DNA of 64,000 bases, from contig NC_057756.1 in the NCBI RefSeq assembly GCF_004010195.1, positions 8,158,676-8,222,675 on the forward strand, written 5' to 3'. Positions within the stretch are counted from its first letter, which is position 1. Each line of letters begins with the position of its first letter. The notes under the pieces are model-generated. The model did not search any database. It had not been told where the DNA came from and saw nothing but the letters and a program-made list of their open reading frames with translations. Made by a program: the position numbers and the translations under genes. Source of the stretch: Chiloscyllium plagiosum. Taxonomy: Eukaryota. This document shows, in pieces, positions 1,933 to 64,000 of the stretch.

Positions 1933-2024
1933 GTGGAAATGTGTTGCTGGAAAAGCGCAGCAGGTCAGGCAGCATCCAGGGAACAGGAGAATCGACGTTT
2001 CGGGCATTAGCCCTTCTTCAGGAA
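1933..2024 (-). mobile_element. 92-bp Penelope-like terminal-repeat fragment inserted in Tx1 copy A, carrying a minimal hammerhead motif
   Basis: 15-bp TSD TGGTGGTGAGAAGGG at 1918-1932 and 2025-2039; the paralogous site in copy B (about 7437-7451) has a single copy and no insert. The same sequence adjoins Penelope RT at 17818-18981. Confidence 0.85.
1991..2024 (-). ncRNA. Minimal type I hammerhead ribozyme motif (family 1)
   Basis: Minus strand reads ttc-CTGAAGA-a-gggc-taat-gccc-GAAA-cg-TC-gat: CUGANGA core, 4-bp helix II, GAAA, palindromic ACGU helix III and GUC site. Confidence 0.78.
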
Positions 2025-2697
2025 TGGTGGTGAGAAGGGCTCTGCCTGTGAGATCCTTTATGCACACCGGACTCTCAGCCGCCCCGCACGCTGCCCTCGA
2101 AGTGGCTGCGGGGGGTATGAGACTGTCACACACCTCCTTCTGGAATGTGCCTACGCAGAAGAAGTCTGGAGAGGAATGCAGTGGTGTTTGTCGAGGTTCG
2201 TCCCAAGCAGCGCTGTGACGCGGGACTCCGTGCTCTACGGCCTGTTCCCCGGTGACGCACACCGAGACGAACTTCAACTATACCTGGAGGATCATCAACT
2301 CGATGAAGGACGCTCTCTGGACGGTCCGAAACCAGTTGATCTTCCAGCTGAAGGAGCTGATCCCAACTGAGTGTTGAGGACTGGCACATTCCAAGGTCCA
2401 GGACTACGTGTTGGACGCAGTGAAGCTTGGGGCAGCTGCCGCCAAGGCACGGTGGGGAAAGACCACCGTGTAACGTCTGTCTGCCAAAGAACAGGGGGCC
2501 CACGCAGTAAGTGGGCTCTGCTGGCGCCTCAGCTAAATATATGGATAGTAAATGTACAGACCTGTATATAGGAATGATTAATTCCGATCTCTGTATGCAA
2601 AGAAATTGAACATTTATGTATGTATGGCATGACCAACTGTACAAATTATCAAAATATTTTATGAATAAAATATATTTTTGAAATTTTTAAAAAAAAA

Positions 2698-5600
2698 TTA
2701 CTGCCTGCAGGATTTCCCTGGGGCAGGCCATTTCAATGTGACCTTCAGGAGTGTGAAGCAGCTCCTGAAGGTATTGAAGAAGAAGGAAGGGGAGCCTCTG
2801 TTCTCCATTTTGTTGGTGGTCTTGTGTGTGCTTCTTGCACAGAGGCGTCGGGTTGTTACCATCCATATGTACAAACCCCACGTCTCAGCAGCTGTTGTCC
2901 TGACCTTCCTGGGACAGTATGTGCAGGTCGAAGGTGACAGCATGGATGTGGTTGACCCATTTGGTATCTGGACCAGCAAACGGCAGGTCCAAGTAACGCT
3001 GAAGGTGGACGCCAGCAGGAACATCCTCCACCCACCCTCCAGCTTCGCATTCGGAGGGAGCAGGGGGCTACCTGACGTACGCAGGGCAGCTGAAAGTGTG
3101 CCGAACCTGTGGGAAGTCAGGCCACATGGCAGCGGACTGTAAGGTGACCATCTGCAGGAACTGTAAGCAAGAGGGTCACCTGACAAAGGACTGTAAGGAG
3201 GCGAAGAACTGTAATCTGTGCGGAGAGGCAGGTCACATTTACAAGGCCTACCCAAGACGGGAGGGAGGCAGCCACTTACACACAGATGGCCGGGGGTAGC
3301 AAGGTGAGCTGTGGACCCCAAAGACCAGCAAGGTCCAATCAGACAGCAGGGGGAACTGAGTCTGGGGGCACACAGAAAGAAGGACAGGCTGGAACGGAGC
3401 AGGCAACAGCCAGTGGATAGGTACAGCAGCCGACCCAAGCTCCGACAGGACAGACGGAGACAATGGAGGAGGAACGAACCAAGGAGGCAGGGGTGTGGAT
3501 ACCTGTGAAAAACAGGAAACGGAAAACCCGCCAGGTCCCCAAAGCAACCCAGCAAAGTGGAAACAGCAGCTGCACGAGGAGGATACAGGCAGCTCTTCAG
3601 ATGGTGAAGACGGGCGCAAGGAGGGTCGTCACTAAAAGAAGAGGCAGAGTGCCGAGGGGAGAAAGGAGGGCGACACCCACCAACCAGGACACAACGCACC
3701 CTCTGAGGTGGCTGGTAAAGCCCACCGCCAATCTCCCCTCCCTAACTAGGTGAAAACCAGGAGATACCCAATGCCCCACAGCTCCACTTAACTGAGAGCA
3801 GCAATCCTCTGACAGCCCCGCTGTCAGACACAGAACTGGACTGGTCATGGCCCGATGACACCAGAGTGGGGAAATGACCCCAGCGAGGAACTGGACAGCT
3901 ACCTCAGCCCTGCAAGTGTCCAGCAGTTCGCCTTTACCATGGGGACGCAGACATCTGCCACGGAGACAGTGGTAACTTTGTAAACTGTAAGATGGCCATT
4001 AAAATTGCCAGCATTAACCTGCATAGCATTTAATCTTCTATGCGAAGTGTTTCTACGATGGCCTTCCTGGCCAACGTTACAGCTGATGTCCTATTTCTGC
4101 ACCTCAGCAGTTACAGGAGATGGTCAAGCTTGTGGGCCCATGGGCTGTCAGTTTGGTCGGGGGGAGCAATGATACTGGCCTGAGTATCCTGCTCCGAGGA
4201 GGCGATTTCACCATCTCCGAGGTTAAGGAGGTGGTGGGCGGGCGCCTCCTTGTCACCGACGTCATGTACAGGAATGCTCCCCTGAGATTGATTAATGTGT
4301 ACGCCCCAGTGGGTAAGAGTGAACGGTTGGCCGTCCTGCAGCAGCTTCCACTGTTGCTGGCTATATCCAGGCCGGTCATTCTGGACAGAGACTTCAACTG
4401 TATCATTGATGCAGACGGATGATCCGACGGGGGGGACAGTAAACTGGACGCCACGTCCAGAGCCCTGATGGAAACTATCAAAGACGCCAAGCTGCACGAC
4501 GTTTACAGCACCCCTGCAGACGGAGCGCAGCGTAGATACACCTGGTCATGGGCAGACGGGTCTATCCACTCAAGGATAGATTACCTGTTTGTGTCCCGGT
4601 CTCGGACAGATCCACCGACGTCAAGCTAGTGTTCTTCTCTGACCACTGCCTCCTGCTGGCCGACTGTTACCTACAGGATGAGCAGCGGGCTGGTAAGGGA
4701 ACGTGGAAGCTGAACACAAAGCTGTTGACCCCGGGAAACATTGAGGAGCTCAGGAGGGACTACGCAGGTTGGAGAACCGTGAAGCCCCTCTTTGAGTCCT
4801 CAGCGGACTGGTGGGAAACAGTAAAAGGGAACATCAAGAGATTCTTCATCCTCAAAAGTGTTCAGGAGGCGAGAGGGAGGCGGGGAAAACTGTCCCAACT
4901 CCAGGAAAGTATGTAGAACCTGCGCCTGCTGCAGACGATGGGGGTTGATGTCACGGAGGACCTCCAGGAGGTGAAGGGCCAGCAAGCCTCGCTCTTTGCC
5001 TCGGAGGCCTCCAAGATAATCTTCCAGTCCAGGGTCCGCTCGGTGGAGCAGGACAAGACGTGCTCATGTTTCTTCTTCCAGAAGGTGCACAAAGAGAACT
5101 CCGTGCTCAGCAGCCTGAAGGAAGAAGATGGCTCGCTAACGTCATCTCAGGCTGACGTCATGAGGATCAGNNNNNNNNNNNNNNNNNNNNNNNNNNNNNN
5201 NNNNNNNNNNNNNNNNNNNNNNNNNNNNNNNNNNNNNNNNNNNNNNNNNNNNNNNNNNNNNNNNNNNNNNNNNNNNNNNNNNNNNNNNNNNNNNNNNNNN
5301 NNNNNNNNNNNNNNNNNNNNNNNNNNNNNNNNNNNNNNNNNNNNNNNNCAGGTTGGAGAACCGTGAAGCCCCTCTTTGAGTCCTCAGCGGACTGGTGGGA
5401 AACAGTAAAAGGGAACATCAAGAGATTCTTCATCCTCAAAAGTGTTCAGGAGGCGAGAGGGAGGCGGGGAAAACTGTCCCAACTCCAGGAAAATATGCAG
5501 AACCTGCGCCTGCTGCAGACGATGGGGGTCGATGTCATGGAGGACCTCCAGGAGGTGAAGGGCCAGCAAGCCTCGCTCTTTGCCTCAGAGGCCTCTAAGA

Positions 5601-8092
5601 TAATTTTCTGGTCCAGGGTCCGCTCGGTGGAGCAGGACAAGACGTGCTCACGTTTCTTCTTCCAGAAGGTGCACAAAGAGAACTCCGTGCTCAGCAGCCT
5701 GAAGGAAGAAGATGGCTCGATAACGTCATCTCAGGCTGACGTCATGAGGATCAGTAAATCCTTCTATGCCAGTCTATATGACGCGAAGCCAACCGAAAGC
5801 GCGGCCTCCCAGTCGTTCTGTCCTCTATCACGGAGGTCTTAGACGACAGAACACGCGAGAGGCTGGACCAGCCGCTATCTCTGGACGAGCTGACCAAGGC
5901 CCTCGAGTCCTTCGAAAAGAATAAAACTCCCGGAAGCGACGGCTTACCGGATGAGATCTATTCCGCTCTGTGGGACTTGATTGGCCGGGACCTGCTGGAG
6001 GTGTCTGTCAGTATGCTTCGGGCAGGTACCATGAGGAAAGGCATCATCACCCTCATCTACAAGCGGAAGGGGGAGAGGGAGGAAATTTGAAATTGGAGAC
6101 CAATCTCGCTATTAAATGTGGATTACAAAACCTTGTCAAAGGTCATCGCCAACCGGGTCAGGTCTGCTCTGGGATCGGTGATTCACTCTGACCAAACCTG
6201 TGCTGTTCCGGGCAGGAAGATCACTGAGAGTCTTGCACTCCTCAGAGATACGATCACCTATGTGAAGGACAGGGGGGTGGACACCTGCCTCATCAGCCTG
6301 GACCAGGAGAAAGCCTTTGACAAGATATTGCATACATAGATGAGAGATGGGCTTTGGGGAGGGAATCTGCAATTGGATCAGACTGCTCTACACCAACATT
6401 GTCAGTGCAGTCTCAATCAATGGGTGAGATTCAGCCCTCTCTCTCCTGACTTGTTTGTGTGCTGCATAGAGCCATTTGCCGAGTCCATCAGGAAGGTTGC
6501 GAGCCTGAGAGGGGTGACTATTCCTGGCAGCGGGGGCCTGCAGGTTAAGGCCTCCCTGTACATGGATGACGTCGCCGTTTTCTGCTCGGATCCGCTGTCC
6601 GTGCACAGACTCATGTGCATTTGTGACCAGTTCGAACGGGCCTCGGGGGCCAAGGTAAACTGAGGCAAGAGCGAGGCCATGCTCTTCAGGAACTGGGCCG
6701 ACCAATCCTCCATCCCCTTCACCGTCAGGACCGACCACCTTAAGGTGCTGGGTATTTGGTTCGGAGGGGCTGAGACGCGCGCCAAGTCTTGGAAGGAGCA
6801 TATCAGGAAACTAAGGCAGAAACTGGGTAGATGGGGGAAACGGTCGCTCTCCATCGCGAGTCAAAACCTGGTCATCAGGTGTGAGGTTCTCTCAGTTTTG
6901 TTATATGTGGCACAGGTCTGGCCTATTCCCTGAACCTCTGCCACCCCAGTCACCCGGACCATCTTCCACTTTATGTGGCGATCAAAGATGGACTGGAACC
7001 GAAGGGACACATGTAGAAAGGTCTGGGCAACTGGGAAATAACACACCCAATGCCACCCTCACCCTGATGGCCACCTTTGTGTGTGGCTGCATCAAGCTGT
7101 GCATGGATCCCCGATACGCAAACACCAAGTGTCACTACGTAATGAGGTTCTACCTGTCCCCGGTGTTGCGAAGGATGGGCCTGGCCTCACTGCCATGGAA
7201 CGCTCCGAGTAGTTGGACCATTCCGTATCACCTGTCCTTCATGGAGAAGTTTATGAAGAAAAACACCTTTGACCACAAATCCATCAGGAAGTGGTCAGCA
7301 CGTAGTGTCCTTGAGAGCCTTCGGGAAAAGGAGAGCGCGGATCCTATCGAGTGGTTCCCTGAACAGACTGTCAAAGTCATTTGGCAGAATGCCTCATCGC
7401 CAGAACTTTCCAACAAGCACCAAGACATGGCTTGGCTGGTGGTGAGAAGGGCTCTGCTGGTAAGATCCTCTATGCACGCCCAGACTGTCTGCTCCACCTC
7501 ACGCTGTTCTCGAAGCGGCTGTGGACAGGACGAGACTGTCACACACCTCCTTCTGGAATGTGCCTATGTAAAGGAAGTCTGGAGAGGAATGCAGAGATGT
7601 TTGTCGAGGTTTGTCCCAAGCAGCTCCATGACATGGGATTCTGTGCTCTCCAATCTGTTCCCCGGGACACACACTCAGTCAAACATCAACTGTGCCTGGA
7701 GGATCATCAACTCGGTGAAAGACGCTCTTTGGTCTGTCCATAACCTGTCGGTCTTCCAGCTGAAAGAGGTGACCCTGACTGAGTGTTGCAGACTGGCACA
7801 TTCCAAGGTCCAGGACTACGTGCTGAAGCTTGGGGCAGCTGCCGCCAAGGCGTGGTGGAGAAAGACCGCCGTATAAGGTCTGCCTGCTGAAGAACAACGG
7901 GGGACCCACTCAGCAATTGAGCTCCGCTGATGTCTCAACTCAACATCCAGATGGTCAACATACAGAATTGTAAATACAAATGATTCAGTCTGGTCTCTGT
8001 ATGTAAAAACATGTAATGTATATATGAATGGCATCACTGTACAAATATCAAAAGATATCTACGAACCAAAATATATTTTTGAAATAAAAAAA
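2698..8092 (+). mobile_element. Tx1-clade LINE, copy B: partial ORF1 with three CCHC knuckles, ORF2 (APE-RT-zf) from ATG 3992, 3' UTR and A-rich tail; decayed
   Basis: ORF1 contains [28 protein letters not shown] and [17 protein letters not shown] motifs LINVYAP, DFNC, FSDH; RT motifs SLDQEKAFD and YMDD; CSRSGC...ETVTHLLLEC. Interrupted by the gap at 5171-5348. Confidence 0.92.
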
Positions 8093-12021: not shown

Positions 12022-12295
12022 GGCATCTATCTGTGAGAACCGAAAGATAATCAGCCAATTCAACTTGAGCACACTGTGGTAACAGTCTATTGGGTACACA
12101 TAAGCACTACAGCACATCATCAAGCTTTCTCCAACAACTCATTGCTCGAGTATCACCTTTGTTTTCTGGAAAATCTCTTCCTATTGGTTGAGGAATTGAA
12201 GGAGACAGCTGTAACCAACACTTGAAAACCACAAAAGAAGCAATGACGACTGGATGGAATGACTTGGAAACGCCATGTTTGACTGGAGTGGACAA

Positions 12296-12386
12296 AGTTA
12301 AAAGTCACAAAACACCAGGTTACAGTCCAACAGGTTTATTTGGAAGCACTAGCTTTCGAAGCGCTGTTCCTTCATCAGGTGGTTGA
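12296..12386 (-). mobile_element. Penelope-like terminal fragment, family 2, with hammerhead motif at 12347-12381
   Basis: Minus strand reads cac-CTGATGA-aggaacagcgcttc-GAAA-gc-TA-gtg; homologous to 28411-28531. Confidence 0.7.
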
Positions 12387-17335: not shown

Positions 17336-17817
17336 ATTGTGAATGGTATTGAACATTGTGCGGTCATCAAACCTTATCCTTATGATTCAGGGAAGGTCAT
17401 TGATGAAGGAGTTGAAAATAGATAGCCATAGGATATTAGCCTGAGGAATTCCTGCAGAGATGTTCTGGAGCTGAGATGACAAACTTAAAGTAATCATAAT
17501 CAGTTTCCAATGTGCCAGCTATCAATCCAAACAGCGAAGATTCTCATTCACTCCAGTTTTGCTGGGAATCCTTGATTCCACATCTTGTCAAATACAGCCT
17601 TCCTCTGAAGGAAAGTCACCCTCACCCCTTTATTACCTGCTCTCACAATCTGAATGTTCTGCTTTTGGAAGGCAATTTACACAACACTATTAATTCAGTT
17701 CCAACAACAGCAGAAAAATCTGGAATATAGAACTTGTATCTGTGATGAACTCTAATTTTCAGAAGAAAATGCAAAGCCATACTGCGAAATGTTTACTTTT
17801 GTTCATTTGTATATGCT

Positions 17818-18981
17818 GGAAATGTGTTGCTGGAAAAGCGCAGCAGGTCAGGCAGCATCCAGGGAACAGGAGAATCGATGTTTCGGGCATAAGCCCTTCT
17901 TCAGGAATGGGGAAAGTGTGTCCAGCAGGCTAAGATAAAAGGTAGGGAGGAGGGACTAGGGGGAGGGGCGTCGGACATGTGATAGNNNNNNNNNNNNNNN
18001 NNNNNNNNNNNNNNNNNNNNNNNNNNNNNNNNNNNNNNNNNNNNNNNNNNNNNNNNNNNNNNNNNNNNNNNNNNNNNNNNNNNNNNNNNNNNNNNNNNNN
18101 NNNNNNNNNNNNNNNNNNNNNNNNNNNNNNNNNNNNNNNNNNNNNNNNNNNNNNNNNNNNNNNNNNNNNNNNNNNNNNNNNNNNNNNNNNNNNNNNNNNN
18201 NNNNNNNNNNNNNNNNNNNNNNNNNNNNNNNNNNNNNNNNNNNNNNNNNNNNNNNNNNNNNNNNNNNNNNNNNNNNNNNNNNNNNNNNNNNNNNNNNNNN
18301 NNNNNNNNNNNNNNNNNNNNNNNNNNNNNNNNNNNNNNNNNNNNNNNNNNNNNNNNNNNNNNNNNNNNNNNNNNNNNNNNNNNNNNNNNNNNNNNNNNNN
18401 NNNNNNNNNNNNNNNNNNNNNNNNNNNNNNNNNNNNNNNNNNNNNNNNNNNNNNNNNNNNNNNNNNNNNNNNNNNNNNNNNNNNNNNNNNNNNNNNNNNN
18501 NNNNNNNNNNNNNNNNNNNNNNNNNNNNNNNNNNNNNNNNNNNNNNNNNNNNNNNNNNNNNNNNNNNNNNNNNNNNNNNNNNNNNNNNNNNNNNNNNNNN
18601 NNNNNNNNNNNNNNNNNNNNNNNNNNNNNNNNNNNNNNNNNNNNNNNNNNNNNNNNNNNNNNNNNNNNNNNNNNNNNNNNNNNNNNNNNNNNNNNNNNNN
18701 NNNNNNNNNNNNNNNNNNNNNNNNNNNNNNNNNNNNNNNNNNNNNNNNNNNNNNNNNNNNNNNNNNNNNNNNNNNNNNNNNNNNNNNNNNNNNNNNNNNN
18801 NNNNNNNNNGTCGGTTTGTAGGAGATGTCCGTGTTGATTCGGTCGCGTGAGATAGAAATAGAAAGGTCGAGGAAGGGGAGGGAGGAATCTGAGACTGTCC
18901 AGGTGAATTTGAGGTTGGGGTGGAAGGTGTTGGTGAAGTGGATGAACTGTTCAACCTCCTCGTGGGAGCACGAGGTGGCAT
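17818..18981 (-). mobile_element. Penelope-like element, family 1: RT C-terminus, gap, then 3' terminal repeat with hammerhead at about 17873-17908
   Basis: 18810-18981 minus frame reads EEVEQFIHFTNTFHPNLKFTWTVSDSSLPFLDLSISISRDRINTDISYKPT, a typical PLE RT end. Left part reads attc-CTGAAGA-agggcttatgccc-GAAA-ca-TC. Linkage across the gap is assumed. Confidence 0.8.
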
Positions 18982-21299
18982 TTGTATATGATTATGCTCC
19001 TATGAGACGGATCACAGAGATGACAATGCTGTGGGGTGACTGCAGGGCAGCTGGTAGGGTAGAGGAGTACAGGAATATGACTCCTTTAATCTCTGAAGTA
19101 CAATACTGCAAAAAAAAGGGTAAGAATGGATTTTTGAATCATTATGTTCTAACAGTTCTTTCAGAAAAACAGAGCAATATGTCGAACATGGCAGTGAAAC
19201 TAAGAGCTGTTTCCATGCTGCACATTTGTCCAAATCACAGAAAGGTGAGAGCAAGGAAAAATGTTAGAACACTTGGCCTCTCATCCATACTGCAGTTCCT
19301 TCAAAGGGCTTTGATAGGTACTCCTATCAATGTAAATTTGATCCCCTTTCAGTACTTATCCATACGTACTTAAGTGATGTCCTAATGCTATATCTCACAA
19401 CAAATGGGTCAGATTTTAGAAAAATGATGGTGGCATCGCTATGTATGAACGTTGCCAAACACTGAGGTACCCTAAGTTTATCTCTGTATGTCTGTGCAGA
19501 ACTGAAGCTGTAATGACGTTTACGCCTTAACGGTTGAAATGTGGTCAACCAGAAGGAAGTTTGAATGTTGCAATTGTGTGCAGAGGTGTTCAAGTCTTAT
19601 TTCTCTGCAGTAGCTGCCCGAGACTATGTACTAATATTTGAGTAGTAGGTAATATTGGACTTGTCCTTTAATATTTTAGAAATAATTTGAAGAATGTGAA
19701 TGGTTCAAATAAATGAAAACCCACAGATATATCACCTTGTCCTGCAGGATTTTTTCATGTGAAAGAGAAAGTGTGATTGCATTTTCAGCACTGTTAAGTT
19801 TCATTGCAAGCAATTATATGTGGACAGTCGTGGCTTTAAGATCAAGGATAATGCCAGTCAATTATGAAGCAGAAGAGTTCATTTGCTTGCATCCTCTCTG
19901 CATGAACAGCAATGGAAGCAAAACAAATTATTTGAGTTGAATCTTGTTTTTGAAATGGTGCCAACATTTTAATGGGAGTTAGCAATGAATGGACGCATGA
20001 TGAAATTGAAAATGGAAGATATAGGAATTCCAGAAAGAGACCTGTTTGAGGAGAATGATAGAAGCAGAAGAGTCTCCACACTGTAAGATACAATGACACT
20101 GGCTGATATAAAGTTACAACACTGAATAAAGGTGCTGACTGATGTCATTTAGGCAATGAAATGTGGGGTCATTAATCTGGCAAGCCATTGAGTTCAAGGG
20201 TGGATTATGGATGTAAAAGGCCCACTCAGACACGATCTTAAAGCTATCCCACGTACCACAGACACATCATCTGCACCAATCACCAAGACTAAGCTTCTCT
20301 GTTCCCTTTAATTCATAAGTCGTGGTCTGAACAAAATTTGCTGATGTTCTGATGGATTTAGTGTGATCTTGTAAAATTTGCATTTTCCTCTCTGACGACA
20401 TAGCTATGCAAGTCCATTGTTGTGAAAAGAAGTTGCAACTGCTCAAATACAACCAGTGAAATTCCGGACTGTTTCTAAATAGTTAACTTGGAAAGCCGAG
20501 TTTTAAATAGTCTGCCAGATAAAGGGAACCTAAAATTTGTAAAGGAAGTTCTTTCACACTTGCTTTAATCTTGTGGGTTTGGGCAGTTGAAAGAGGAAGG
20601 AGGGAATGAGGAACTACATGTGTCCAAAAGTGACCAAGCAAGAGAACAAATGCAAACATTTGAACCAATCCATGGTAAGAAGCACATGCAATTTTCTTTC
20701 TCAAGACTTTTTTTCATGCCATGCACCTATAACCGCGTGAGCTATAGTTCTGAATACTTGCAGAGTGATTTAGGGTTGGCAAGATTCAAGGGATAATAGG
20801 AAAGGACGGGGAAAGAGGCTCAAGAGGGGAAAGAAATGGACAGACTCATTGAGTGGGCGTGCCTCTCTATTTGACGCTCATTACTGATTTTCTTTGAAGT
20901 AAGAACTTCCGATTGGAGACCATTTGGCAATTACAAAATGAATCTTGTTGTTCCAGACCTTGAGTTACACAACCCATTGCCACACTGAAACTTCACAAGG
21001 TTATTAATCTTCCTAAGTAAATACACAACAAGCATATATCTGGTTTCTTTGACTACAGTATTAAACCCTTCAGCACTTGTGTAATGTTTCTGAAAGAGCA
21101 GTTTCTTGGCGAATGCTGGAAAGAGGGACTAATGCAGATTTAGTGTAGTCCTGTGCAGGCTCAATGGGCCAAAGGGTCTTTTCTGTGCTGTATTGTACAG
21201 CCTAAAGAAAACGGCAATGTCGCAGCAGAGTGACGTGCATCAGACATGAAACGGACATCAAAATAACTAATAGAAAGTGAGGATTATAAATGTCAGCGA

Positions 21300-21550
21300 T
21301 CAGAGTCGAAAAGTATGGCGCTGGAAAAGCACAGTCAGTCAGGTAACATCAAAGCAGCAGAAGAGTCCACGTTTCGGACATAAGCCCTTCATCAGGAATG
21401 TGGTCAGGTCCAAATTCAGATGTTCTGAATGTAGTCTGGAGTCTGTGCAGGATAAGTCGGTTGAAAGGCTTCTGCCCGATATGTCCACTGCCCTGCTCCT
21501 CGGATGCTGCCTTGACTTGCTGTGCTTTCCCAGCACCACACCTTTTGATC
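21300..21550. mobile_element. Inverted pair of Penelope family-1 terminal fragments
   Basis: 21300-21402 (minus sense, CTGATGA...GAAACGTG) and about 21462-21550 (plus sense, degraded) are reverse complements of each other around a ~60-bp spacer. Confidence 0.75.
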
Positions 21551-22693
21551 AAAATAACTAAGTACACAATGGCAGAAATGAGCAAAGAGGAAGAGGTGGA
21601 AAGATGAAAAGGTTTTGAGATCTGATTGTGGAACAAGACTAGTACTATCATCAAGAATATTGTAAATAGGTACCAGGAATGTTGACAGACAGTGACAATC
21701 ACAGCCCACAAACAGATGCATGACAAAACTAAATATAATTTAATTTCCACAGTGTTCCCTGAGGTAAGTGATTTTGAACTACATTTAATATTGACTGAAC
21801 TGTATAAATAGTGTGCTATTTCGGCTGGAATATACGGGGATATGGTTGTGGATTGGGTGGGAGATGCACGTGTAGTGCTTGCAAAAAAAGTGCTGGATTA
21901 GTACGGCAGTGGCTATTTTCACGGGGAGGATGGGGTTTCAGCTCAAGTTCCATCACAAACCAAATACAAATTACATCTTCACCTATTCGTACACCTTACT
22001 CAAAAATAATCAAGAAGGTTATGGAATTCTGTTTGAATGTTACTAGTTGTGCTCATCCAGCATGGTGTCATCCGGCAAATTCTGATATTACATCGGCAAA
22101 GTCACCACTGATCTCTTGTTATAAACAGCGGACAGATGATGAATTTTTACTTCAGGTGTGTCAGGCCTGAAGTAAGATGGGAGGTTAAGATGGTGGATCT
22201 TCATGGTAACCTCAATGGATACAAGTATTGAACCTGCAAGCTGGGAGCACTCACTATCACAAATCAGCTATGCAGCCAACTGAGCTGCAGCTAACAGGAA
22301 AACTGTAGGAAAATAATGGTCAAAGTTCAGTCGCCCTCAACAAGAATCGCAGGTTTCCCCAACAGTATTAAATGTACAGAGGAGAGGAATTGCTTTGGAA
22401 TTTTTCAAAAATGCTTACTTTGTGAACTTGAATGTTACTTCGGTTACAATATGACTGTTTGAATATTGCATCATGACTAATGATGGATTTTCTTGTTCCT
22501 TTTCCTCTGCTTTTCAGCAGTAGAGGAATTCAAATACAGGAAAAAGATGAAAGCAATGTGCTCAGTAATTGTGAACACTGACGCCAGGGAAGATGTTGCA
22601 TAATGGAGACCCTGAGGGGTTTTCTTCTCTATGGATAGACTCCACCACCCTGTCAGTTTGAAAATGCTGAGACATTATCACTTCTGACAGAAT

Positions 22694-24644: not shown

Positions 24645-24752
24645 AAACTGGTGAAATCGGAGTTCATCCCTTGTGGTTGGAGGGTTCCTAGGCGGAAGAT
24701 GAGGCGCTCCTTCCTCCAACCGTCATTTTGTTGTGGTCTGGCGATGGAGGAG
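24645..24752 (-). mobile_element. Penelope-like element, C-terminal end of the GIY-YIG endonuclease
   Basis: Minus frame reads WRKERLIFRLGTLQPQGMNSDFTS (E..LIFRLGTL.P.G.N pattern). Confidence 0.7.
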
Positions 24753-25219
24753 TTAGCCCTCTGCCAATTGTCATCTACAAAAATGGGAATGGGCAGGTGG
24801 TGGTGCAATGATGATGTCCCTAGATTGATTAAGCAAATGCCAAATGACATTTTGGAAACATGAGTTCACCTCACTGCACGCACTCACAAATTTTTGGCTC
24901 ATGAGCATCATTTTTGGAAAGAAATATCCTTTCTGACCTTGTCTGGTTTACAAATGACACCAGACAAACATCAAGATCTGCCTCCTGAGGAATGAATGAT
25001 TAGAAAAAAAAACAACAGCCCAGTGAGTTGATGCTACTGATCATAAAAATCATACTTTCATTGTTATTCATTGTTCTTAGGTGACATTTGTGGGCATTTG
25101 TCATCATAAAAACAAAATGATTCACTTCAACATTTCTAGTGGTATCTCTGAGTGAATCTGTGCTAACTGTTGTTTTGTCATGGCGTCTAAGTGTCTTACC
25201 TATTCACGTTTCTGAACAG

Positions 25220-26119: not shown

Positions 26120-26207
26120 GAGAAAGTGAGGTCTGCAGATGCTGGAGATCAAAGTTGAAACTTTATTGCTGGAACAGCACAGCAGGTCAGGCAGCATCCA
26201 GGGAACA
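26120..26207 (-). mobile_element. 88-bp Penelope family-1 3'-terminal insert within CR1 ORF1
   Basis: 15-bp TSD GGAAAGCCATAGCAG at 26105-26119 and 26208-26222; body matches 47981-48070 and 49803-49898. Confidence 0.82.
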
Positions 26208-28410
26208 GGAAAGCCATAGCAGCCAGGCCTCTGGCACTGAGCCTGGCTCTGTGGCTCAGAAGGGAAGGGGAGAGAATAGAAAAGTGCTAGTGGTAGGAGA
26301 CTCAACAGTTAGAGGAACGGACAGGAGATTCTGTGGTCACAAACGGGTCTCCCAGAAAGTATGCTGCCTCCCAGGTGCCAGAGTTCGTGATGTCTCTGAT
26401 CAAGTCAACAGGATTCTGAAGGAGGACAGTGAGCAGCCAGATGTTGTGGCACCAATGACATAGCTAGGAAAAGGGATGAGGATCTAAAAAGTGATTTCAA
26501 GGAGTTGGGTTGGAAGTTAAAAAGCAGGACAAGCAGAGTAGTAATGTCAGGAGATTAGTAATCCACTCCCTGGTGCAGGAGGGGGAGGCTTCAGATACGT
26601 AGATCATTGGAGTACCTTCTGGGAAAGGTGGGACCTGTACATGAAGGACGGGTTGCACTTAAACTGGAGGGGCACCAATGGTTAGAGCAAATTGGGAGGG
26701 TTTAAATTAGTTTGGCAGGGGGATGGGAACCAGAGTGACAGATCAGGGGAGAGCGTAATTGTTGAACAGGCAGAAAAAGAATGCAGAGAGTCTGTCAGGA
26801 AAGATACAGAATTGACAGGGCAAAGAGATGGGTTAAAGTGTGCTTGTTTCAATGCAAGAAGTATCAGAATTAAGAGTGATGAACTTAGAGCAGGGATCAG
26901 TACTTCAAACTTCGATGTTGTGGCCATAATGGAGACATGGATTTCACAGGGGCAGGAAAGGTTGCTGAATGTTCCATCATTTAGATCTTTTTAAAAGAGG
27001 AGGAGAGTAGTGTTGTTAATTAGAGTGTGCATTGCAGCTTGAGAAAGAGGGTTGATGAAGAGGGATTGTCTACTGAGTCAGTATGGGTGGAAGTCAAGAA
27101 CAGGAAAGGAGCAGTCACTTTATTGGGTGTTATCTATAGACCCCCCCCCAATAGCAGCAGAGAGATGGAAGAACAGATTTGTACAGCAGATCTTGCAAAG
27201 GTGTAGATGTAACAAAGTTATTGTTATGGGTGTCTTCAACATCCCCAATATTGATTGGAACCTCCTCAGTTTGGATGGAGCTGATTTTGTCAGGTGTGTC
27301 CAGGAAAGATTTCTGATTCAGTATGTAGATAGGCTGACTGGGGCAGGGGGGTGGGGGGGGGGAGGTGGTGTTGCATTTTGGATGCACCAGGCCAGGTGTC
27401 AGACCTCTTGGTGGGAGAGCATTTCGGTGACAGTGACTACAACTGCTTCACCTTTACTGTGGCCATGGAGAGGGATTGAAACAGACAGAATGGTAAGGTA
27501 TTTAACTGGGGGAAGGGAAATTATACTGCTATTAGACAGGAGCCATGGAAAATAAATTGGGAAAATTTGTTCTATGGGAAATGCACAACAAAAATGTGAA
27601 GGCTGTTTAAGAAGCACTTGTTGCGAGTGCTGGATAACTTTGTCCCACTGAGACAGGAAAGAACAGTACAGTGGATGGCAAGAGCAGCACAGCTTCTAGT
27701 CAAAAGGGAGAAGGAAGCTTACTTAAGGTTGATGAAGCAAGGATCTGGCACAGATTTACATGATTACAGGGTAGCTCGGAAAGAACTCAAAAACGGACTG
27801 AAGAGAGCTAGGAGGGGGCATGAAAATGCCTTGGCGGGAAGGATTAGAGAAAACCCAAAGGCGTTCTACATGTATGTGAGGAATAAGAGAATGACCAGAG
27901 AGAGGTAGGGCCGAACAGGGATAGTGGAGGGAACTTGTTCCTGGAGTCTGAAGAGTTAGAGGAGGCCTTCAATGAATTTTTTGCTTCAGTATTTATGAGA
28001 TGGGGGACCTTGTTAATAGTGGGAACACCGTGGACCAGATTAATAGGCTTGAACAGACTGATATTAAGAAAGTGGATGCACTGGAAATTCTGGGAAGCAT
28101 CAAGATAGATAAGTCCCCAGAGCCAGACCAAACATATTCAAGTTTACCATGGGAAGTGATGAATGAGATTGCTGCACCTCTGGTGATGATCTTGGCATCC
28201 TCGCCCTCCATGGAAGTAGTACTGACTGACTAGAAGGAGGCGAATGTTGTTCCTCTGTTCAAGAAAGGAACTAGGGAAATCCCTGGGAATTACAGACTGG
28301 TCAATCTTACATCTGCGGTAAGCAAGGTACTGGAAGGTTTCTGCGAGGTAGGATTTATGACTATCTGAAAAAACAAAGTTTGATTAAAGATAGTCAGCTT
28401 AGCTTTATGA

Positions 28411-28531
28411 AGTTAAAAATCACACAACACCAGGTTATAGTCCAACAGGTTTAATTGGAAGCACACTAGCTTTCGGAGCAACACTCCTTCATCAGGTGGC
28501 AGTGGAGGGCTCAATCCTAACACACAGAATT
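28411..28531 (-). mobile_element. Penelope family-2 terminal fragment inserted in CR1 ORF2
   Basis: Interrupts the SQHGFVKG codons with diverged direct repeats (gctttatgaag / gctttgtgaag); homologous to 12296-12386. Confidence 0.75.
28464..28498 (-). ncRNA. Minimal type I hammerhead ribozyme motif (family 2), core intact
   Basis: Minus strand reads cac-CTGATGA-a-ggag-tgttg-ctcc-GAAA-gc-TA-gtg: helix I CAC/GUG, helix II GGAG/CUCC, palindromic AGCU, CUA site. Confidence 0.78.
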
Positions 28532-30100: not shown

Positions 30101-30102
30101 TG

Positions 30103-31375: not shown

Positions 31376-33395
31376 AACTTCCTGGTTTTGCTCCCACCCT
31401 AATGACACCAAATTCGGACATTTCCTCCCAGGGAGGAAAATGGCAGCTACCTCAGTGCAGAGAGTGTTCAACAGTTACCCTACAACACCAGGATGTAGAG
31501 AGTCCACCAGTGACAAGATCGCCGGTGAATGGACAATGGGTCAATGGGTAATTCCATGAACTCTCAAAATGTGTTTTAAAATTGCCTTTATTAATATGTG
31601 TAGCTTTAAATGTATTGTAAAATGTGTTTCCACGCTAGCTTTACCTGGCCAAAGTCAAAGCAGATCCCCTGTTTCTGCAGGAGTGTAGGGTACCGCACCT
31701 TAGCAGCTACAGGAGATGGTCAAGCTAATGGGCCAACGGGCCTTCGATTTGGTTGGGGAGAAGGGAAACGGTTATTGTTCTTCCTACCTGGGTACTCTAC
31801 TGTGAGGAGGCAACTTCACTACCTCCGAGGTTAAGGAGGTGTTGGGTGGCCGACTCCTCGTAGCAGACGTTACATAGAGCAACGTTCCCAAGATTAATTA
31901 ATATATAAGCCCCGTTAGTAAAGAGTGAGTGGCTGGCCATTCTGCAGCAGCTCCCACTATAACATCACCATCTTCCACAAGCAGGAGGGAGGAGATTTGA
32001 AATTGGTGACTAATTTCATGCTGAATGCAAATGACAAAACTCTGTCTAAAGTCATCACTAAACGTGTCAGGTCTGCTCTGGGATCAGTGATTCACCCTGA
32101 CCGAACCTGTGCTGTAGTTGGCAGGACGATCTCTGAAAGCCTTGTGCTCCTCAGGGATACAATTGCCTATTTGTAGGATAGAGGGAGTGGACACTTGCCT
32201 CATCGACCTGGACCAGGAGAAGGCCTTTTACAGGATATAGCACATGTACATGTGGAATGTACTCTCCAAAATGGGGTCTGGGAAGGGAATACACAATTGG
32301 ATCCAATTGCTTGCCACAACATTGTTAGTGCAGTCTCAATGGGTAGGAATCAGGAAGTTTGTCGATCAGATCCGGAGTCAGGCAGGGCTGCCCACTCTCT
32401 CCTGCCTTGTTTGTGTGTTGCATAGAGCCCTTTTCTGAGTATATCAGAAAAGATTGTGAGCCCAAGAGGGTGACTTTTCCAGGCAGCGAGGCCAGCAGCT
32501 CCAAGCCTCCCTGTACATGATTGATGTCACCATTTCTGCTCAGATCCGCTGTCAAAGCACAGACTCATTGGAATCTGTGACCATTCCAAACTGGCCTCGG
32601 GAGTCAAGGGAAATCAAGGCAAGAGCTAAGCAATGTTCTTTGGGAACTGGGCTGACCAATCCTTTATCCCCTCCACCATCAGGGCAGGTTACCTGAAGAT
32701 GCTGGGACTATGGTTTGGAGGGGCTGAGGCATGTGAAAATTTTTCAGAGAAGTGCAGCACCAAAGTGAAGCAGAAACTAGTCTTTTGGGAGCACGGCTCC
32801 CTCTCCATTATGGGTAAAAACCTGGTCATCAAATGTGAGGCACTCTCTCTGTTGTTGCATATAGCGCAGGGCTGGCCCATTCCCAGAACCTGCACCATTA
32901 CAGTCACCTGAACCATCTTCCAGTTCATCTGGAGGTCTAAGATAGACCGGATCTGCAGGGACTGCCTGCACAAAGCTATCAATAAGGGGGGCGGGGGGGG
33001 TAGGGCAATAATCTACCCTCATCCTAATGGCCACTTTGAGTGTGATCCTTGATAGGCAAATACCAAGTGTCACTACATACTGAGGTTCTACCTGTCCCCG
33101 CTGTTGCAAAGATGGGACTGGCCTCGATGCCGCGGAATGCTCCAAGACCATTCTATATCATAAGTCCTTCATGGAGAAATTTGCAAAAAAAAACAAATCA
33201 ACCATAAGTTCATCAGGAAGCAGTCAACACGTAGGATCCAAAGACCCTGAGGGAAAAGGAGAGAATAGATCCTGTCATGTGGTTCCCTGAGCAGACTGTC
33301 AAAGTCATTTGGCAGAATGCCTCATCTAACGAGCACCAAGACATCACTTGGCCTGCAGTGAGAAGGGCAATACCTGTGAGATCCTTCATGTACAC

Positions 33396-34490
33396 TTTTG
33401 GAGAAGATTTGTAGCTCAGGTTGAGGTTCAGGTTGTAAGTTTCCTCGCTGAACTGGCAGGTTTGGTTTCAGACATTTCGCCACCATGTTAGTTAGGTAAC
33501 ATCATCAGTGATCCTCTGGTGAAGTGCTGGTGTTCTGTCCCACTTTCTATTTAGGTGGGTGATATCATTTCAGGTTCTTTTTCTCAGAGATTGGTAAATG
33601 GGGTCCAAATCAATGTGTTTATTGAGTTCTGATTTGAATGACAGGCCTCTAGGAAATCCTGTGTGTGTGTCTCTGTTTAGCCTGTCCTAGGATGGATATG
33701 TTGTCCCAGTCAAAGTGATGTCTTTCTTCGTTTATATGTAAGTATACTAGTAATAGTGGGCCATGCCTTTTTTGTGGCCAGTTGGTGTTCATGTGCCCTG
33801 GTGGCTAGTTTCCTGCCTGGCTGTCCGATGTAGTGTTTATTAGTCCTTGCATGGTATTTTGTAAATTACATTCATTTTGCTGGTTGTTCGTATAGGATCC
33901 TTTGGGTTCATCAGTAGTTGTTTTTCTATGTATTGGTAAATTTGTGTGTTACCATGATGCCAAGAGGTCAGAGTAGTCTGGTAGTCATCTCTAAGATGTC
34001 TTTGATATATGGTATTGTAGCTAGAGTCTCTGAGCATGTTATCTACTTTGTTTGGGTTTGCTGTTAAAGAATTGGTGAACTGTGTTTATTCTTCTGAATA
34101 TGCTGTATTTTCTTCTCCTGGCTGCTGCAATGTATTGTGGCCCATTTAAGTAATGTCCTGATGCAGCTACGTTTGTGGGTTTTGGGATGATTGTTTAAAT
34201 GGGCATCCATCCTTGGACACGCTAAACAGAGACATGCATGGAAATTCTGAGAGGCCTGGCATTTAAACCAGAACTCAATGAATAGACACATCGATCTGGA
34301 CCCCATTTACCAAACTCTGAGAAAAAGAACCGGAAATGATATCAACCACCCTAACAGACCAAGACACATAAATAGAAAGCAGGACAGAACACCAGCACTT
34401 CACCACAGTCTCACTGATGATGTTACCTAGCATGGTGATGAAAAGTCTGAAATCAAACCTGCCAGCTCAGCGAGCAAACCAACAACCTGA
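33396..34490 (-). mobile_element. Penelope-like element, family 3 (Poseidon-like): GIY-YIG region plus an inverted terminal repeat, each repeat with a hammerhead
   Basis: Minus frame reads NVIYKIPCKD...YIGQPGRKLATRAHEH. 34196-34490 is an inverted copy of about 33428-33710. Diverged TSD atccttcatgtacac / atacttcatgcatgc in the Tx1 host. Confidence 0.85.
34411..34450 (+). ncRNA. Minimal hammerhead motif (family 3); inverted partner at 33468-33511 on the minus strand
   Basis: tca-CTGATGA-t-gttacc-tagcat-ggtgat-GAAA-ag-TC-tga; partner reads tca-CTGATGA-t-gttacc...ggtggc-GAAA-tg-TC-tga. Confidence 0.72.
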
Positions 34491-47980: not shown

Positions 47981-48116
47981 GGAGAAAGTGAGGGCTGCAG
48001 ATGCTGGAGATCAGAGCTGAAAATGTGTTGCTGGAAAAGCGCAGCAGGTCAGGCAGCATCCAAGGAGCAGGAGAATCGACGTTTCGGGCACAAGCCTTTC
48101 CAGCAACACATTTTCA
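47981..48116 (-). mobile_element. Penelope family-1 terminal insert with a 20-bp inverted cap
   Basis: 48097-48116 (TTTCCAGCAACACATTTTCA) is the reverse complement of about 48018-48037; flanked by AAACAAAAAA...GG direct repeats. Confidence 0.8.
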
Positions 48117-49802: not shown

Positions 49803-49898
49803 GGGAGAAAGTGAGGACTGCAGACGCTGGAGATCAGAGTCAAGAGTGTGGTGCTAGAAAAGCACAGCAGGTCAGGAAGCATCCGAGGAACAGGAGAA
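49803..49898 (-). mobile_element. Penelope family-1 3'-terminal insert
   Basis: Direct repeat CTTTCTGAAT at 49790-49799 and 49901-49910; body matches the other family-1 copies. Confidence 0.78.
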
Positions 49899-50156
49899 CT
49901 CTTTCTGAATGGTAACAATTCTGAGACTCTCCAAACTAAGGGAAAGGGGGTAGTTAGTTTCAGGGTTTTAAGCCAGTGATATTGAAGGATCGGCGATGTT
50001 TCCAAGTGAGGATGGTGAACAAACTGGAGGAGAACTTTCAGGGGGTGGTGTTCCCATGTATCTGATGTCCTTGTCCTTCTAGATGGAAGGGGTCATGGAT
50101 TTGGAAGGTGCTGTCCAAGGCACCTTGAGGAAGTTGTGCAGTGTACCTTATGGACG

Positions 50157-51236: not shown

Positions 51237-51280
51237 GTGAGTACTTTTAATCCTCGTTTTAAAACAATTTCACATTTTCT

Positions 51281-51368
51281 AAGAGTCTGGTGCTGGAAAA
51301 GCACAGCTGGTCAGGCAGCATCCAAGGAGCAGGAGAATAAATGTTTCGGGTATAAACCCTTCATCAGG
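51281..51368 (-). mobile_element. Penelope family-1 terminal fragment with hammerhead motif
   Basis: Minus strand reads c-CTGATGA-a-gggt-ttat-accc-GAAA-ca-TT. Confidence 0.75.
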
Positions 51369-51369
51369 T

Positions 51370-61000: not shown

Positions 61001-63470
61001 TGCAGTGTAGGAGTGTCAGTACTGAGGGAGTGCAACACTATAGAAGGGTCAGTACTGAGGGTGTGCGGCACTGTCAGAGGGTCAGCGCTGATGGAGCACT
61101 GCAGTGTAGGAGTGTCAGTACTGAGGGAGTGCAACACTATAGAAGGGTCAGTACTGAGGGTGTGCGGCACTGTCAGAGGGTCAGCGCTGATGGAGCACTG
61201 CAGTGTAGGAGTGTCAGTACTGAGGGAGTGCAACACTATAGAAGGGTCAGTACTGAGGGTGTGCGGCACTGTCAGAGGGTCAGCGCTGATGGAGCACTGC
61301 AGTGTAGGAGTGTCAGTACTGAGGGAGTGCAACACTATAGAAGGGTCAGTACTGAGGGTGTGCGGCACTGTCAGAGGGTCAGCGCTGATGGAGCACTGCA
61401 GTGTAGGAGTGTCAGTACTGAGGGAGTGCAACACTATAGAAGGGTCAGTACTGAGGGTGTGCGGCACTGTCAGAGGGTCAGCGCTGATGGAGCACTGCAG
61501 TGTAGGAGTGTCAGTACTGAGGGAGTGCAACACTATAGAAGGGTCAGTACTGAGGGTGTGCGGCACTGTCAGAGGGTCAGCGCTGATGGAGCACTGCAGT
61601 GTAGGAGTGTCAGTACTGAGGGAGTGCAACACTATAGAAGGGTCAGTACTGAGGGTGTGCGGCACTGTCAGAGGGTCAGCGCTGATGGAGCACTGCAGTG
61701 TAGGAGTGTCAGTACTGAGGGAGTGCAACACTATAGAAGGGTCAGTACTGAGGGTGTGCGGCACTGTCAGAGGGTCAGCGCTGATGGAGCACTGCAGTGT
61801 AGGAGTGTCAGTACTGAGGGAGTGCAACACTATAGAAGGGTCAGTACTGAGGGTGTGCGGCACTGTCAGAGGGTCAGCGCTGATGGAGCACTGCAGTGTA
61901 GGAGTGTCAGTACTGAGGGAGTGCAACACTATAGAAGGGTCAGTACTGAGGGTGTGCGGCACTGTCAGAGGGTCAGCGCTGATGGAGCACTGCAGTGTAG
62001 GAGTGTCAGTACTGAGGGAGTGCAACACTATAGAAGGGTCAGTACTGAGGGTGTGCGGCACTGTCAGAGGGTCAGCGCTGATGGAGCACTGCAGTGTAGG
62101 AGTGTCAGTACTGAGGGAGTGCAACACTATAGAAGGGTCAGTACTGAGGGTGTGCGGCACTGTCAGAGGGTCAGCGCTGATGGAGCACTGCAGTGTAGGA
62201 GTGTCAGTACTGAGGGAGTGCAACACTATAGAAGGGTCAGTACTGAGGGTGTGCGGCACTGTCAGAGGGTCAGCGCTGATGGAGCACTGCAGTGTAGGAG
62301 TGTCAGTACTGAGGGAGTGCAACACTATAGAAGGGTCAGTACTGAGGGTGTGCGGCACTGTCAGAGGGTCAGCGCTGATGGAGCACTGCAGTGTAGGAGT
62401 GTCAGTACTGAGGGAGTGCAACACTATAGAAGGGTCAGTACTGAGGGTGTGCGGCACTGTCAGAGGGTCAGCGCTGATGGAGCACTGCAGTGTAGGAGTG
62501 TCAGTACTGAGGGAGTGCAACACTATAGAAGGGTCAGTACTGAGGGTGTGCGGCACTGTCAGAGGGTCAGCGCTGATGGAGCACTGCAGTGTAGGAGTGT
62601 CAGTACTGAGGGAGTGCAACACTATAGAAGGGTCAGTACTGAGGGTGTGCGGCACTGTCAGAGGGTCAGCGCTGATGGAGCACTGCAGTGTAGGAGTGTC
62701 AGTACTGAGGGAGTGCAACACTATAGAAGGGTCAGTACTGAGGGTGTGCGGCACTGTCAGAGGGTCAGCGCTGATGGAGCACTGCAGTGTAGGAGTGTCA
62801 GTACTGAGGGAGTGCAACACTATAGAAGGGTCAGTACTGAGGGTGTGCGGCACTGTCAGAGGGTCAGCGCTGATGGAGCACTGCAGTGTAGGAGTGTCAG
62901 TACTGAGGGAGTGCAACACTATAGAAGGGTCAGTACTGAGGGTGTGCGGCACTGTCAGAGGGTCAGCGCTGATGGAGCACTGCAGTGTAGGAGTGTCAGT
63001 ACTGAGGGAGTGCAACACTATAGAAGGGTCAGTACTGAGGGTGTGCGGCACTGTCAGAGGGTCAGCGCTGATGGAGCACTGCAGTGTAGGAGTGTCAGTA
63101 CTGAGGGAGTGCAACACTATAGAAGGGTCAGTACTGAGGGTGTGCGGCACTGTCAGAGGGTCAGCGCTGATGGAGCACTGCAGTGTAGGAGTGTCAGTAC
63201 TGAGGGAGTGCAACACTATAGAAGGGTCAGTACTGAGGGTGTGCGGCACTGTTGGAGGGTCAGTGCCGAGGGAGTGCAACACTATAGAAGGGTCAGTACT
63301 GAGGGTGTGCGGCACTGTCAGAGGGTCAGCGCTGATGGAGCACTGCAGTGTAGGAGTGTCAGTACTGAGGGAGTGCAACACTATAGAAGGGTCAGTACTG
63401 AGGGTGTGCGGCACTGTTGGAGGGTCAGTGCTGAAGGAATGCCATGCTGTCAGAGGGTCAGTGATGAGAA
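55075..63470 (-). repeat. 33-bp satellite array with a homogeneous 99-bp (3 x 33) higher-order repeat, 78 units at 55535-63256
   Basis: Unit GGGTCAGCGCTGATGGAGCACTGCAGTGTAGGA-GTGTCAGTACTGAGGGAGTGCAACACTATAGAA-GGGTCAGTACTGAGGGTGTGCGGCACTGTCAGA; 7722/99 = 78; diverged monomers flank both ends. Confidence 0.97.
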
Positions 63471-63612
63471 TGCATCACACTTTAGGACTTCCTGAGAGGC
63501 TAAAGCAATGCATGCATCCTTGATACTTTCTGCTGTGTCAGCAGCCTCTCCCTGCTCTACTTCCCAGCTCCCCTATCATGGCCAAGGAGGTCAAGGCTGG
63601 ATGTTCCAGGAT

Positions 63613-64000
63613 TGAGTCAAAACGTGTGGCGCTCGAAAAGAATAGCAGGTCAGGCACCATCTGAGGAGCAGGATAATCAACATTTCAGGCATCAGCCCTT
63701 CATCAGGAATGTGGGGGGAAATGGGGAGAAGGGTGCTGAGAGATAAATAGGAGGGTGGCGCTGTGGGGTGGTAGCTGTGAAGGCAATATGTAGATGCCAA
63801 CCTATCACTGTCACCTCCCACCTGCATCTTCCCAACTACCTTCCCCCCAGCCCCACTCCCACCCTCCCATTTATCTCTCAGCCCTCTCCCCCCTATTCCT
63901 GATGAAGGGTTTATATCCGAAATAGTGATTCTCCTGCTCCTTGGATGCTGCCTGTCCTGCTGTGCTTTTCCAGCGCCACATTTTCGACTCTGATCTCCAG
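63613..64000. mobile_element. Inverted pair of Penelope family-1 terminal repeats, each with a hammerhead-like core
   Basis: 63613-63797 and about 63825-64000 are diverged reverse complements; cores at 63675-63710 (minus) and 63895-63930 (plus, degraded). Confidence 0.8.

What the first reader, a model, noticed from the sequence alone, without database searches (positions are those of the whole stretch)
1991..63930. About ten minimal hammerhead-ribozyme motifs from three Penelope-like families in 64 kb
Seen: CTGANGA-hairpin-GAAA-NN-TH cores at 1991-2024, 12347-12381, 17873-17908, 21365-21399, 28464-28498, 33468-33511, 34411-34450, 51336-51368, 63675-63710 and 63895-63930. The three families have unrelated helix II sequences that each pair (GGGC/GCCC, GGAG/CTCC, GTTACC/GGTGRY). 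Family 1 also shows a compensatory GGGT/ACCC variant at 51336-51368. The best copies keep a palindromic helix III (ACGT, AGCT). Established: Penelope-like elements carry minimal type I hammerheads in their terminal repeats, thought to work as dimers. Inference: this genome holds a large dispersed pool of self-cleaving motifs, some possibly still active. The ORF track does not show them.
Basis: partly seen in the sequence, partly recalled or inferred. Interest (0 to 1): 0.72.

Follow-up and report, generated by a model that had tools for sequence, protein, structure and literature searches.

The report
Shark Penelope hammerheads in dead stubs
The ten motifs are real minimal hammerhead-ribozyme sequences at the ends of three families of Penelope-type jumping genes, a known pairing, and they occur over 90,000 times in this likely shark genome, mostly as solitary decaying copies that were likely copied from uncut RNA beginning at the ribozyme.

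Summary
All ten motifs are present and far exceed chance (8 descriptor hits against a shuffle mean of 0.15). They lie in the terminal repeats (pLTRs) of three Penelope-like families, each linked here to a reverse transcriptase or GIY-YIG frame. Exact genome-wide matches number 78,128, 13,666 and 933. This is the minimal hammerhead described for these elements in 2014. Only 2 of 10 window copies are fully intact, and a third keeps its core. The GGGT/ACCC 'compensatory' variant is near the double-mutation expectation (19 seen, 11.4 expected). Copies decay neutrally, mostly at CpG. Covariation exists between source families, including a U3-A8 core family outside the window. Family-1 copies start at the first base of helix I 26 times more often than at the cut site (6,301 against 244), about 30 nt after a TATA-like box. 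The scan noted this pile-up before, in this and other genomes. New here: poly(A) reads end 26-30 nt past the family-2 cut site, after AATAAA/ATTAAA, so a unit transcript would carry one ribozyme at each end. Cleavage was not tested. Verdict: new members of a known kind.

The parts
1933..2024 (-). Family-1 stub (hammerhead plus tail), 92 nt, inserted in a Tx1-like LINE; motif intact, predicted cut after 1994
   Evidence: 15-nt perfect target-site duplication, empty site seen in the LINE paralogue near 7437-7451
12288..12385 (-). Family-2 stub; core and AGCU palindrome intact, one helix II mismatch; predicted cut after 12350; AATAAA at 12340-12335
   Evidence: 9-nt duplication; family-2 poly(A) ends map to 12324 and 12320
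17816..18978 (-). 5'-truncated family-1 element: RT thumb fragment (18812-18978), N run, pLTR with motif 17873-17908 (palindrome broken by a CpG change)
   Evidence: 12-nt duplication; translation; thumb-to-motif link in 25 of 30 genome loci
21298..21552 (.). Head-to-head pair of old family-1 copies; minus copy 21365-21399 has G17 (not cleavable), plus copy from about 21458 is degenerate
24647..24865 (-). C-terminal end of a family-1-type GIY-YIG frame, cut by an N run
   Evidence: translation resembles the end of the L127 frame; no Pfam hit on this short piece
28410..28530 (-). Family-2 copy; motif 28464-28498 fully intact; ATTAAA follows the cut site
33391..34488 (-). Family-3 (Poseidon-like) insertion: broken RT-thumb and GIY-YIG remnant, 3' pLTR with motif 33468-33511, inverted pLTR 34205-34490 with motif 34411-34450 on plus
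   Evidence: translations; inverted homology; 11-nt duplication with one mismatch
51278..51368 (-). Decayed family-1 stub with GGGT/ACCC helix II; helix I and palindrome lost
63612..64000 (.). Head-to-head pair of old family-1 pLTR copies; 63675-63710 (minus) weakened, 63895-63930 (plus) has lost U16.1
48002..48100 (-).
26142..26210 (-). Family-1 tail-only stub
49803..49900 (-). Family-1 tail-only stub starting within about 2 nt of the cut site
   Evidence: (10-13-nt duplication)

Best explanation
The motifs are minimal type I hammerheads in the pseudo-LTRs of three Penelope-like retrotransposon families, and the dispersed copies are likely dead insertions copied from uncut RNA that likely begins at or just before the ribozyme. 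Shown: anatomy, link to RT/GIY-YIG frames, copy numbers, target-site duplications, 5' ends heaped at the motif's 5' edge, a TATA-like box about 30 nt upstream, decay at CpG, and poly(A) ends just after the family-2 motif. Inferred: in source elements the motif is kept by selection and cleaves slowly, only as a pair joined through the ACGU or AGCU palindrome or with help from the element's protein. Inferred: reverse transcription starts in the tail about 55-130 nt past the cut site and often runs off the RNA's 5' end, giving 90-160-nt stubs and fold-back pairs. Inferred: solitary stubs rarely cleave and lose activity over time.
For: Parents: family-1 motif downstream of the RT thumb in 25 of 30 loci; L127 frame has RVT_1 and a weak GIY-YIG hit with a CxxxxCxxC linker; L140 has two same-strand family-2 motifs 2.5 kb apart around an RT frame; family 3 has RT-thumb and GIY-YIG remnants. 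Selection in sources: N7, loop II and the helix I mismatch vary between subfamilies while other core bases do not; five families change helix I and II pairs on both sides and use ACGU or AGCU; a family of 1,037 copies carries U3-A8 (94 of 100 listed, none with G8). 5' ends: 30 of 147 family-1 copies start at -33 to -31, 5 at the cut; genome-wide 6,301 against 244; 26 of 76 family-2 copies start at -39 to -29; TATAAA at -28 to -32 in 13 of 13 long family-2 copies checked. Uncut RNA: poly-T loose ends in 131 and 174 reads 30 and 26 nt past the cut, and 114 reads running on upstream. Literature: single motifs inactive and dimers weak (PMC4209133); anole motif protein-assisted and not needed for insertion in vitro (PMC11167929).
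Against: No cleavage was measured. The start site is inferred from DNA ends and motifs, not from capped reads; no read-end pile-up was flagged. About half of the helix-I starts (48 of 100 listed) are fold-back junctions, and family 1 starts at ATT, a reported endonuclease preference (PMC11167929). The family-1 box is only TTTAT(C). An extra G at the junction is seen in 6 of 7 exact family-2 breaks but not in family 1 (28 G against 24 A). Family 3 shows no clear pile-up. D. virilis Penelope has a TATA-less internal promoter (PMC2377424). Nearest-neighbour folding does not give the double hammerhead as the minimum-energy form.
Confidence: 0.75

Rival explanations
1. The motif in source elements is kept for structure (promoter, protein binding, priming) and hardly cleaves in vivo.
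For: No excess of plain insertions starting at the cut site: about 21 of 100 listed matches at 0 are neither fold-backs nor one-base insertions, total 244, against 230 at +3 and 65 at -3. Polyadenylated reads span the site. Cleavage was dispensable in vitro for the anole element (PMC11167929).
Against: The U3-A8 swap, the free N7 and the kept palindrome match catalytic requirements, not a generic hairpin. The anole motif does cleave with protein.
Confidence: 0.2
2. The pile-up of 5' ends comes from microhomology at ATT or from RT stalling and fold-back at the hairpin, not from a transcription start.
For: Family 1 starts at ATT; 56 of 147 copies have an inverted copy upstream; 64 of 100 cut-site starts are helix I fold-backs.
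Against: Family 2 starts at ACA/ACT, 30-32 nt after TATAAA. The ends sit on the far (5') side of the structure, where a stall would not be expected. 52 of 100 helix-I starts are not fold-back triplets.
Confidence: 0.2
3. The stubs are a self-propagating non-autonomous family (retrozyme or SINE-like).
For: Most copies are 90-160 nt and some have their own target-site duplication. Tandem retrozymes derived from pLTRs are reported in vertebrates, including one chondrichthyan (bioRxiv 10.64898/2026.07.22.740005).
Against: No tandem array of the motif in the window. Same-strand neighbours in the sample are 381 to 6,295 nt apart (14 spacings). Stubs that start at +1 lack the upstream box. 5' ends form a continuum into the ORF, and stubs share subfamily marks with long copies.
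Confidence: 0.1
4. The dispersed copies are an active pool that cuts host transcripts and is maintained by the host.
For: 45 of 107 sampled family-1 motifs are sequence-intact. Sense-strand RNA reads cover the motifs.
Against: Neutral, CpG-driven decay including G12, C15.2, G16.2 and C17. 7 of 10 window copies are damaged in core or palindrome. Solitary motifs lack a partner.
Confidence: 0.08

Closest known systems
[quoted passage not shown]
   Same: Type I, no helix III stem, palindromic 15.2-16.2, extra base between 9 and 10.1, G10.1-C11.1, short helix I, several families per genome, mostly single dispersed copies, inverted pairs, U3-A8 variant.
   Different: Host group (no shark term in the searched supplements) and scale: over 90,000 exact copies here against about 4,000 in coelacanth and 9,000 in Xenopus.
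Poseidon element of Anolis carolinensis (Frangieh et al. 2024, PMC11167929; parts 1-2 of 4 read)
   Same: Motif in the pLTR, two tail ends, copies made from uncut RNA.
   Different: There the ORF starts in stem II; in family 2 the first in-frame ATG is 92 nt past the cut. The parts read do not report a start site at the motif or a poly(A) site after it.
Animal non-LTR retrozymes (bioRxiv 10.64898/2026.07.22.740005; parts 1-3 of 5 read, supplements closed)
   Same: pLTR-derived type I hammerheads in vertebrates.
   Different: Those are tandem repeats; these are dispersed monomers and head-to-head pairs.
Penelope pLTR structures in Adineta vaga and D. virilis (PMC3846280, PMC2377424, PMC8557442; passages only)
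   Same: Inverted 5' pLTR, optional tail, target-site duplications; putative TATA plus initiator in the Adineta pLTR.
   Different: D. virilis uses a TATA-less internal promoter with an intron.

Membership tests
PLE minimal hammerhead (min-HHR) | Core CUGANGA and GAAA with UH cleavage triplet | tested here: met
   8 of 10 window copies; family patterns match 78,128, 13,666 and 933 times with zero reversed-pattern controls
PLE minimal hammerhead (min-HHR) | Helix I and II pairing, extra base after position 9, G10.1-C11.1 | tested here: met
PLE minimal hammerhead (min-HHR) | No helix III stem; palindromic 15.1-16.1 | tested here: met
   ACGU or AGCU in 65 of 89 sampled hits with helix I; 4 of 10 in the window
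PLE minimal hammerhead (min-HHR) | Located in the pLTR of a PLE | tested here: met
PLE minimal hammerhead (min-HHR) | Self-cleavage as dimer or with protein | not testable with these tools
   Bench assay needed; read ends gave no signal
Endonuclease-positive Penelope-like element | One ORF with RT and C-terminal GIY-YIG | tested here: met
   Family 1: L127 (RVT_1 E 1e-8, GIY-YIG E 6e-4, below curated cut-off). Family 3: remnants by eye. Family 2: weak RT hit; endonuclease not shown by profile.
Endonuclease-positive Penelope-like element | Direct or inverted pLTRs, tail, 5' truncation | tested here: met
Neptune clade (family 1) | Zn-finger-like linker between RT and endonuclease; RT phylogeny | tested here: inconclusive
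   CX4CXXC linker seen in L127 (criterion from PMC8557442, shared with Nematis); no tree built
Penelope/Poseidon clade (family 3) | No linker Zn-finger; RT phylogeny | tested here: inconclusive
   No linker motif seen in broken translations; clade label rests on recalled motif likeness; no tree built
Non-LTR retrozyme | Tandem repeats with a hammerhead in each unit | tested here: not met
   (window and 1.33 Mb sample only)
Rfam hammerhead families | Match to a curated model | tested here: not met
   None among 7 hits at E<=1; likely because helix III is missing (inference)

The most novel reading that the evidence does not exclude
The pLTR works as a compact U3-R-U5 unit whose R region is the ribozyme. 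In family 2: TATA box, start 5 nt before helix I, hammerhead, poly(A) signal, poly(A) site 26-30 nt past the cut, then RT start sites before the ATG. A unit transcript would carry exactly two hammerheads, one at each end. They would pair through the palindrome, remove cap and poly(A) tail together and release a unit-length RNA able to circularise. Stubs would come from the capped linear RNA and long copies from the circle or from read-through RNA.
Probability: 0.3. Interest if true: 0.65.

Novelty: new member of a known kind. Interest (0 to 1): 0.36.

Why it matters
The role of hammerheads in Penelope-like elements is stated to be unclear (PMC8557442, passage read). This genome holds tens of thousands of recent copies whose ends record where the template RNA began and where copying started, plus natural variants such as U3-A8. 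That makes the question testable with ordinary RNA-end mapping and cleavage assays. The motifs themselves are expected biology, and the idea of a host-relevant active pool has no support here.

Tried and rejected
Rfam scan: no hammerhead hit. GGGT/ACCC as covariation: rejected, odds ratio 1.7, nominal P 0.024, explainable by mixed copy ages; the test covers only copies with an intact ACGTCGA. Excess core conservation among inserted copies: not seen in 39 copies. Insertions from cut RNA: 5 of 147 starts at the cut looked suggestive, but genome-wide 64 of 100 listed are helix I fold-backs, 15 look like one-base insertions, and totals do not exceed the +3 control. Cap-derived G: not seen in family 1 (9 of 15; 28 against 24); 6 of 7 in family 2, a small post hoc count. 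Cofolding gave no double-hammerhead minimum and is not informative for non-canonical cores. Sequencing-run search: no RNA holder listed on record; run X22 laid 0 reads; no read start or end pile-up in X21, a 3'-type library of which about 2 in 100 reads were read. Short window RT and endonuclease fragments gave no Pfam hit. The first profile script returned 0 rows from a register error and was redone. Literature: 'hammerhead ribozyme, shark, retrotransposon' gave 3 papers, none on shark motifs by listing (one checked); 'hammerhead, ribozyme, elasmobranch' gave 0; two searches listed nothing on a poly(A) site after the motif. The library lacks most subscription papers and Repbase or Dfam entries.

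Full report
Observation. All ten motifs are at the stated places, eight on the minus strand. A descriptor scan finds 8 of them, against a mean of 0.15 in 200 shuffles. Rfam lists no hammerhead among its 7 matches. Copy by copy: 1991 and 28464 are intact; 12347 has an intact core and palindrome with one helix II mismatch; 33468 and 63675 keep only wobble palindromes; 17873, 34411 and 51336 have broken palindromes; 21365 has G17; 63895 has lost U16.1.

Host and scale. The window lies in a 3.56-Gb genome. The best protein relatives of the family-1 frame are from carpet sharks and rays (79% to Chiloscyllium punctatum), so the host is likely a shark. Exact patterns match 78,128 (family 1), 13,666 (family 2) and 933 (family 3) times, with no reversed-pattern controls. 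In 140 evenly spaced 10-kb stretches (1.33 Mb) the descriptor gives 110 hits, 89 with helix I and 65 of those palindromic, against 0-3 in five shuffles. Extrapolated, that is about 170,000 well-formed motifs. The window is ordinary for this genome.

Parents. In 25 of 30 loci found with the window's RT-thumb fragment, a family-1 motif lies downstream on the same strand. L127 carries a 673-residue frame with RT, a CX4CXXC linker and a GIY-YIG hit below Pfam's cut-off. L140 has two same-strand family-2 motifs 2.5 kb apart around a broken RT frame, with the ATG 92 nt past the first cut site. Family 3 in the window is a broken thumb and GIY-YIG remnant with a 3' pLTR and an inverted pLTR. Target-site duplications bound five of the twelve window elements tested, including a perfect 15-nt one around the 92-nt stub at 1933-2024. 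Clade labels (Neptune-like, Poseidon-like) rest on motifs, not on a tree.

Covariation. The GGGT/ACCC variant occurs 19 times; single variants occur 1,266 and 686 times, giving 11.4 expected. It is not a subfamily among young copies. In 39 tail-anchored copies, non-CpG core sites changed at 8 of 390, helix II at 4 of 273, tail at 11 of 312, and CpG sites at 36 of 234. Inserted copies therefore decay about neutrally, and three CpGs inside the motif speed inactivation. Selection shows between sources. Among 74 family-1 copies N7 splits 36 A to 35 T, and loop II and the helix I mismatch vary, while other core bases stay fixed. Five families use different paired helix I and II sequences and ACGU or AGCU. 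One family outside the window has U3-A8 in 94 of 100 listed matches, of 1,037. That swap was already reported in Schistosoma (PMC4209133).

Where copies begin. Of 147 sampled tail-anchored copies (about 16 belong to other families sharing the tail), 30 start at -33 to -31, the first base of helix I, and 5 at the cut; 56 have an inverted copy upstream. Genome-wide, matched patterns give 6,301 starts at helix I and 244 at the cut, with 230 at +3 and 65 at -3 as controls. By my count of the listed rows, 48 of 100 helix-I starts and 64 of 100 cut-site starts are fold-back junctions. In family 2, 26 of 76 copies start at -39 to -29 and 6 at -1 to +2. TATAAA lies 28-32 nt before the modal start in 13 of 13 long copies checked. 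Family 1 has TTTAT(C) at about -31 to -33 and an initiator-like YYATTCC. I infer a transcription start at the ribozyme and run-off copying of uncut RNA. I saw the pile-up before consulting earlier notes; the TATA and extra-G tests followed leads from them. The extra G was not confirmed for family 1.

RNA. Run X21 (poly(A) single-cell reads; contigs under the same species label match unique window DNA with 0-1 differences) laid 967 reads on window 8100-15800. Loose poly-T ends stand before 12324 (174 reads) and 12320 (131 reads), so family-2 sense RNAs are polyadenylated 26 and 30 nt past the predicted cut, and 114 reads continue upstream into pLTR sequence. AATAAA or ATTAAA follows the cut within 25 nt in 21 of 30 family-2 loci; family 1 has a signal in only 5 of 30 and family 3 in 4 of 30, at scattered places. 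A GU-rich run follows, and the genomic sequence there is not A-rich. These reads come from other copies of the family, the number of source loci is unknown, and they could be host transcripts using the signal. No sharp read ends were flagged at cut sites, which this library type could not show well.

Mechanism. Published single minimal motifs did not cleave and dimers cleaved weakly (PMC4209133). The anole motif needs the element's protein, is not needed for insertion in vitro, and RT starts internally at the tail ends (PMC11167929). The best reading is a slow, paired or protein-assisted ribozyme in source elements, with the dispersed stubs as by-products. The boldest reading is that a unit transcript has one ribozyme at each end and is trimmed to a circle-ready monomer; circles were proposed in PMC4209133 and are untested here.

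Verdict. A real feature, new members of a known kind. Searches found no shark description, but repeat databases, most subscription papers, one supplement of PMC4209133 and the preprint's supplements were not visible. Interest 0.36.

Noticed in passing
G000, 1,037 places, e.g. L141, L142, L255, L266 (not in window): A further hammerhead family with a U3-A8 core, helix I AGCU/AGCU and ACGU palindrome, sharing the family-1 tail; its parent ORF was not traced.
   Followed up: partly
L157, L228 and other sampled stretches: At least one more family (helix I GUU/AAC, 14-nt helix II hairpin) and older relatives sharing the same tail.
   Followed up: partly
window 12320-12340 (minus): Family-2 poly(A) signal in use; scattered family-2 copies could supply 3' ends to host transcripts.
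   Followed up: partly
window 55535-63461: Array of 80 copies of a 99-nt unit, 99% identical, built from a 33-nt satellite also at 30104-30731, 35591-36394 and 42597-43189; it gives stop-free frames over 2,600 codons that are likely not genes.
   Followed up: no
window 35106-35252 (+): Decayed U1 snRNA copy (Rfam E 1e-4, below the gathering score).
   Followed up: no
window 10477-11259 (-): Immunoglobulin-domain exon (CEACAM-like by recalled likeness) with a spliced junction 10800-11114 in one contig of run X2.
   Followed up: partly
window 42073-52452 (+): CD22/Siglec-like gene pieces: V-set exon 42073-42513, Ig exon 46740-47189, and a 92% duplicate of 46784-47214 at 50846-51275.
   Followed up: no
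window 1106-8007 and 32867-34926: Three copies of a Tx1-like LINE 3' region (zf-RVT hit); two are interrupted by Penelope-like insertions, 25-40 nt apart in the LINE.
   Followed up: partly
L134:6061-6885 (-), just beyond the window: Intronless frame that reads like a G-protein-coupled receptor (by eye only).
   Followed up: no
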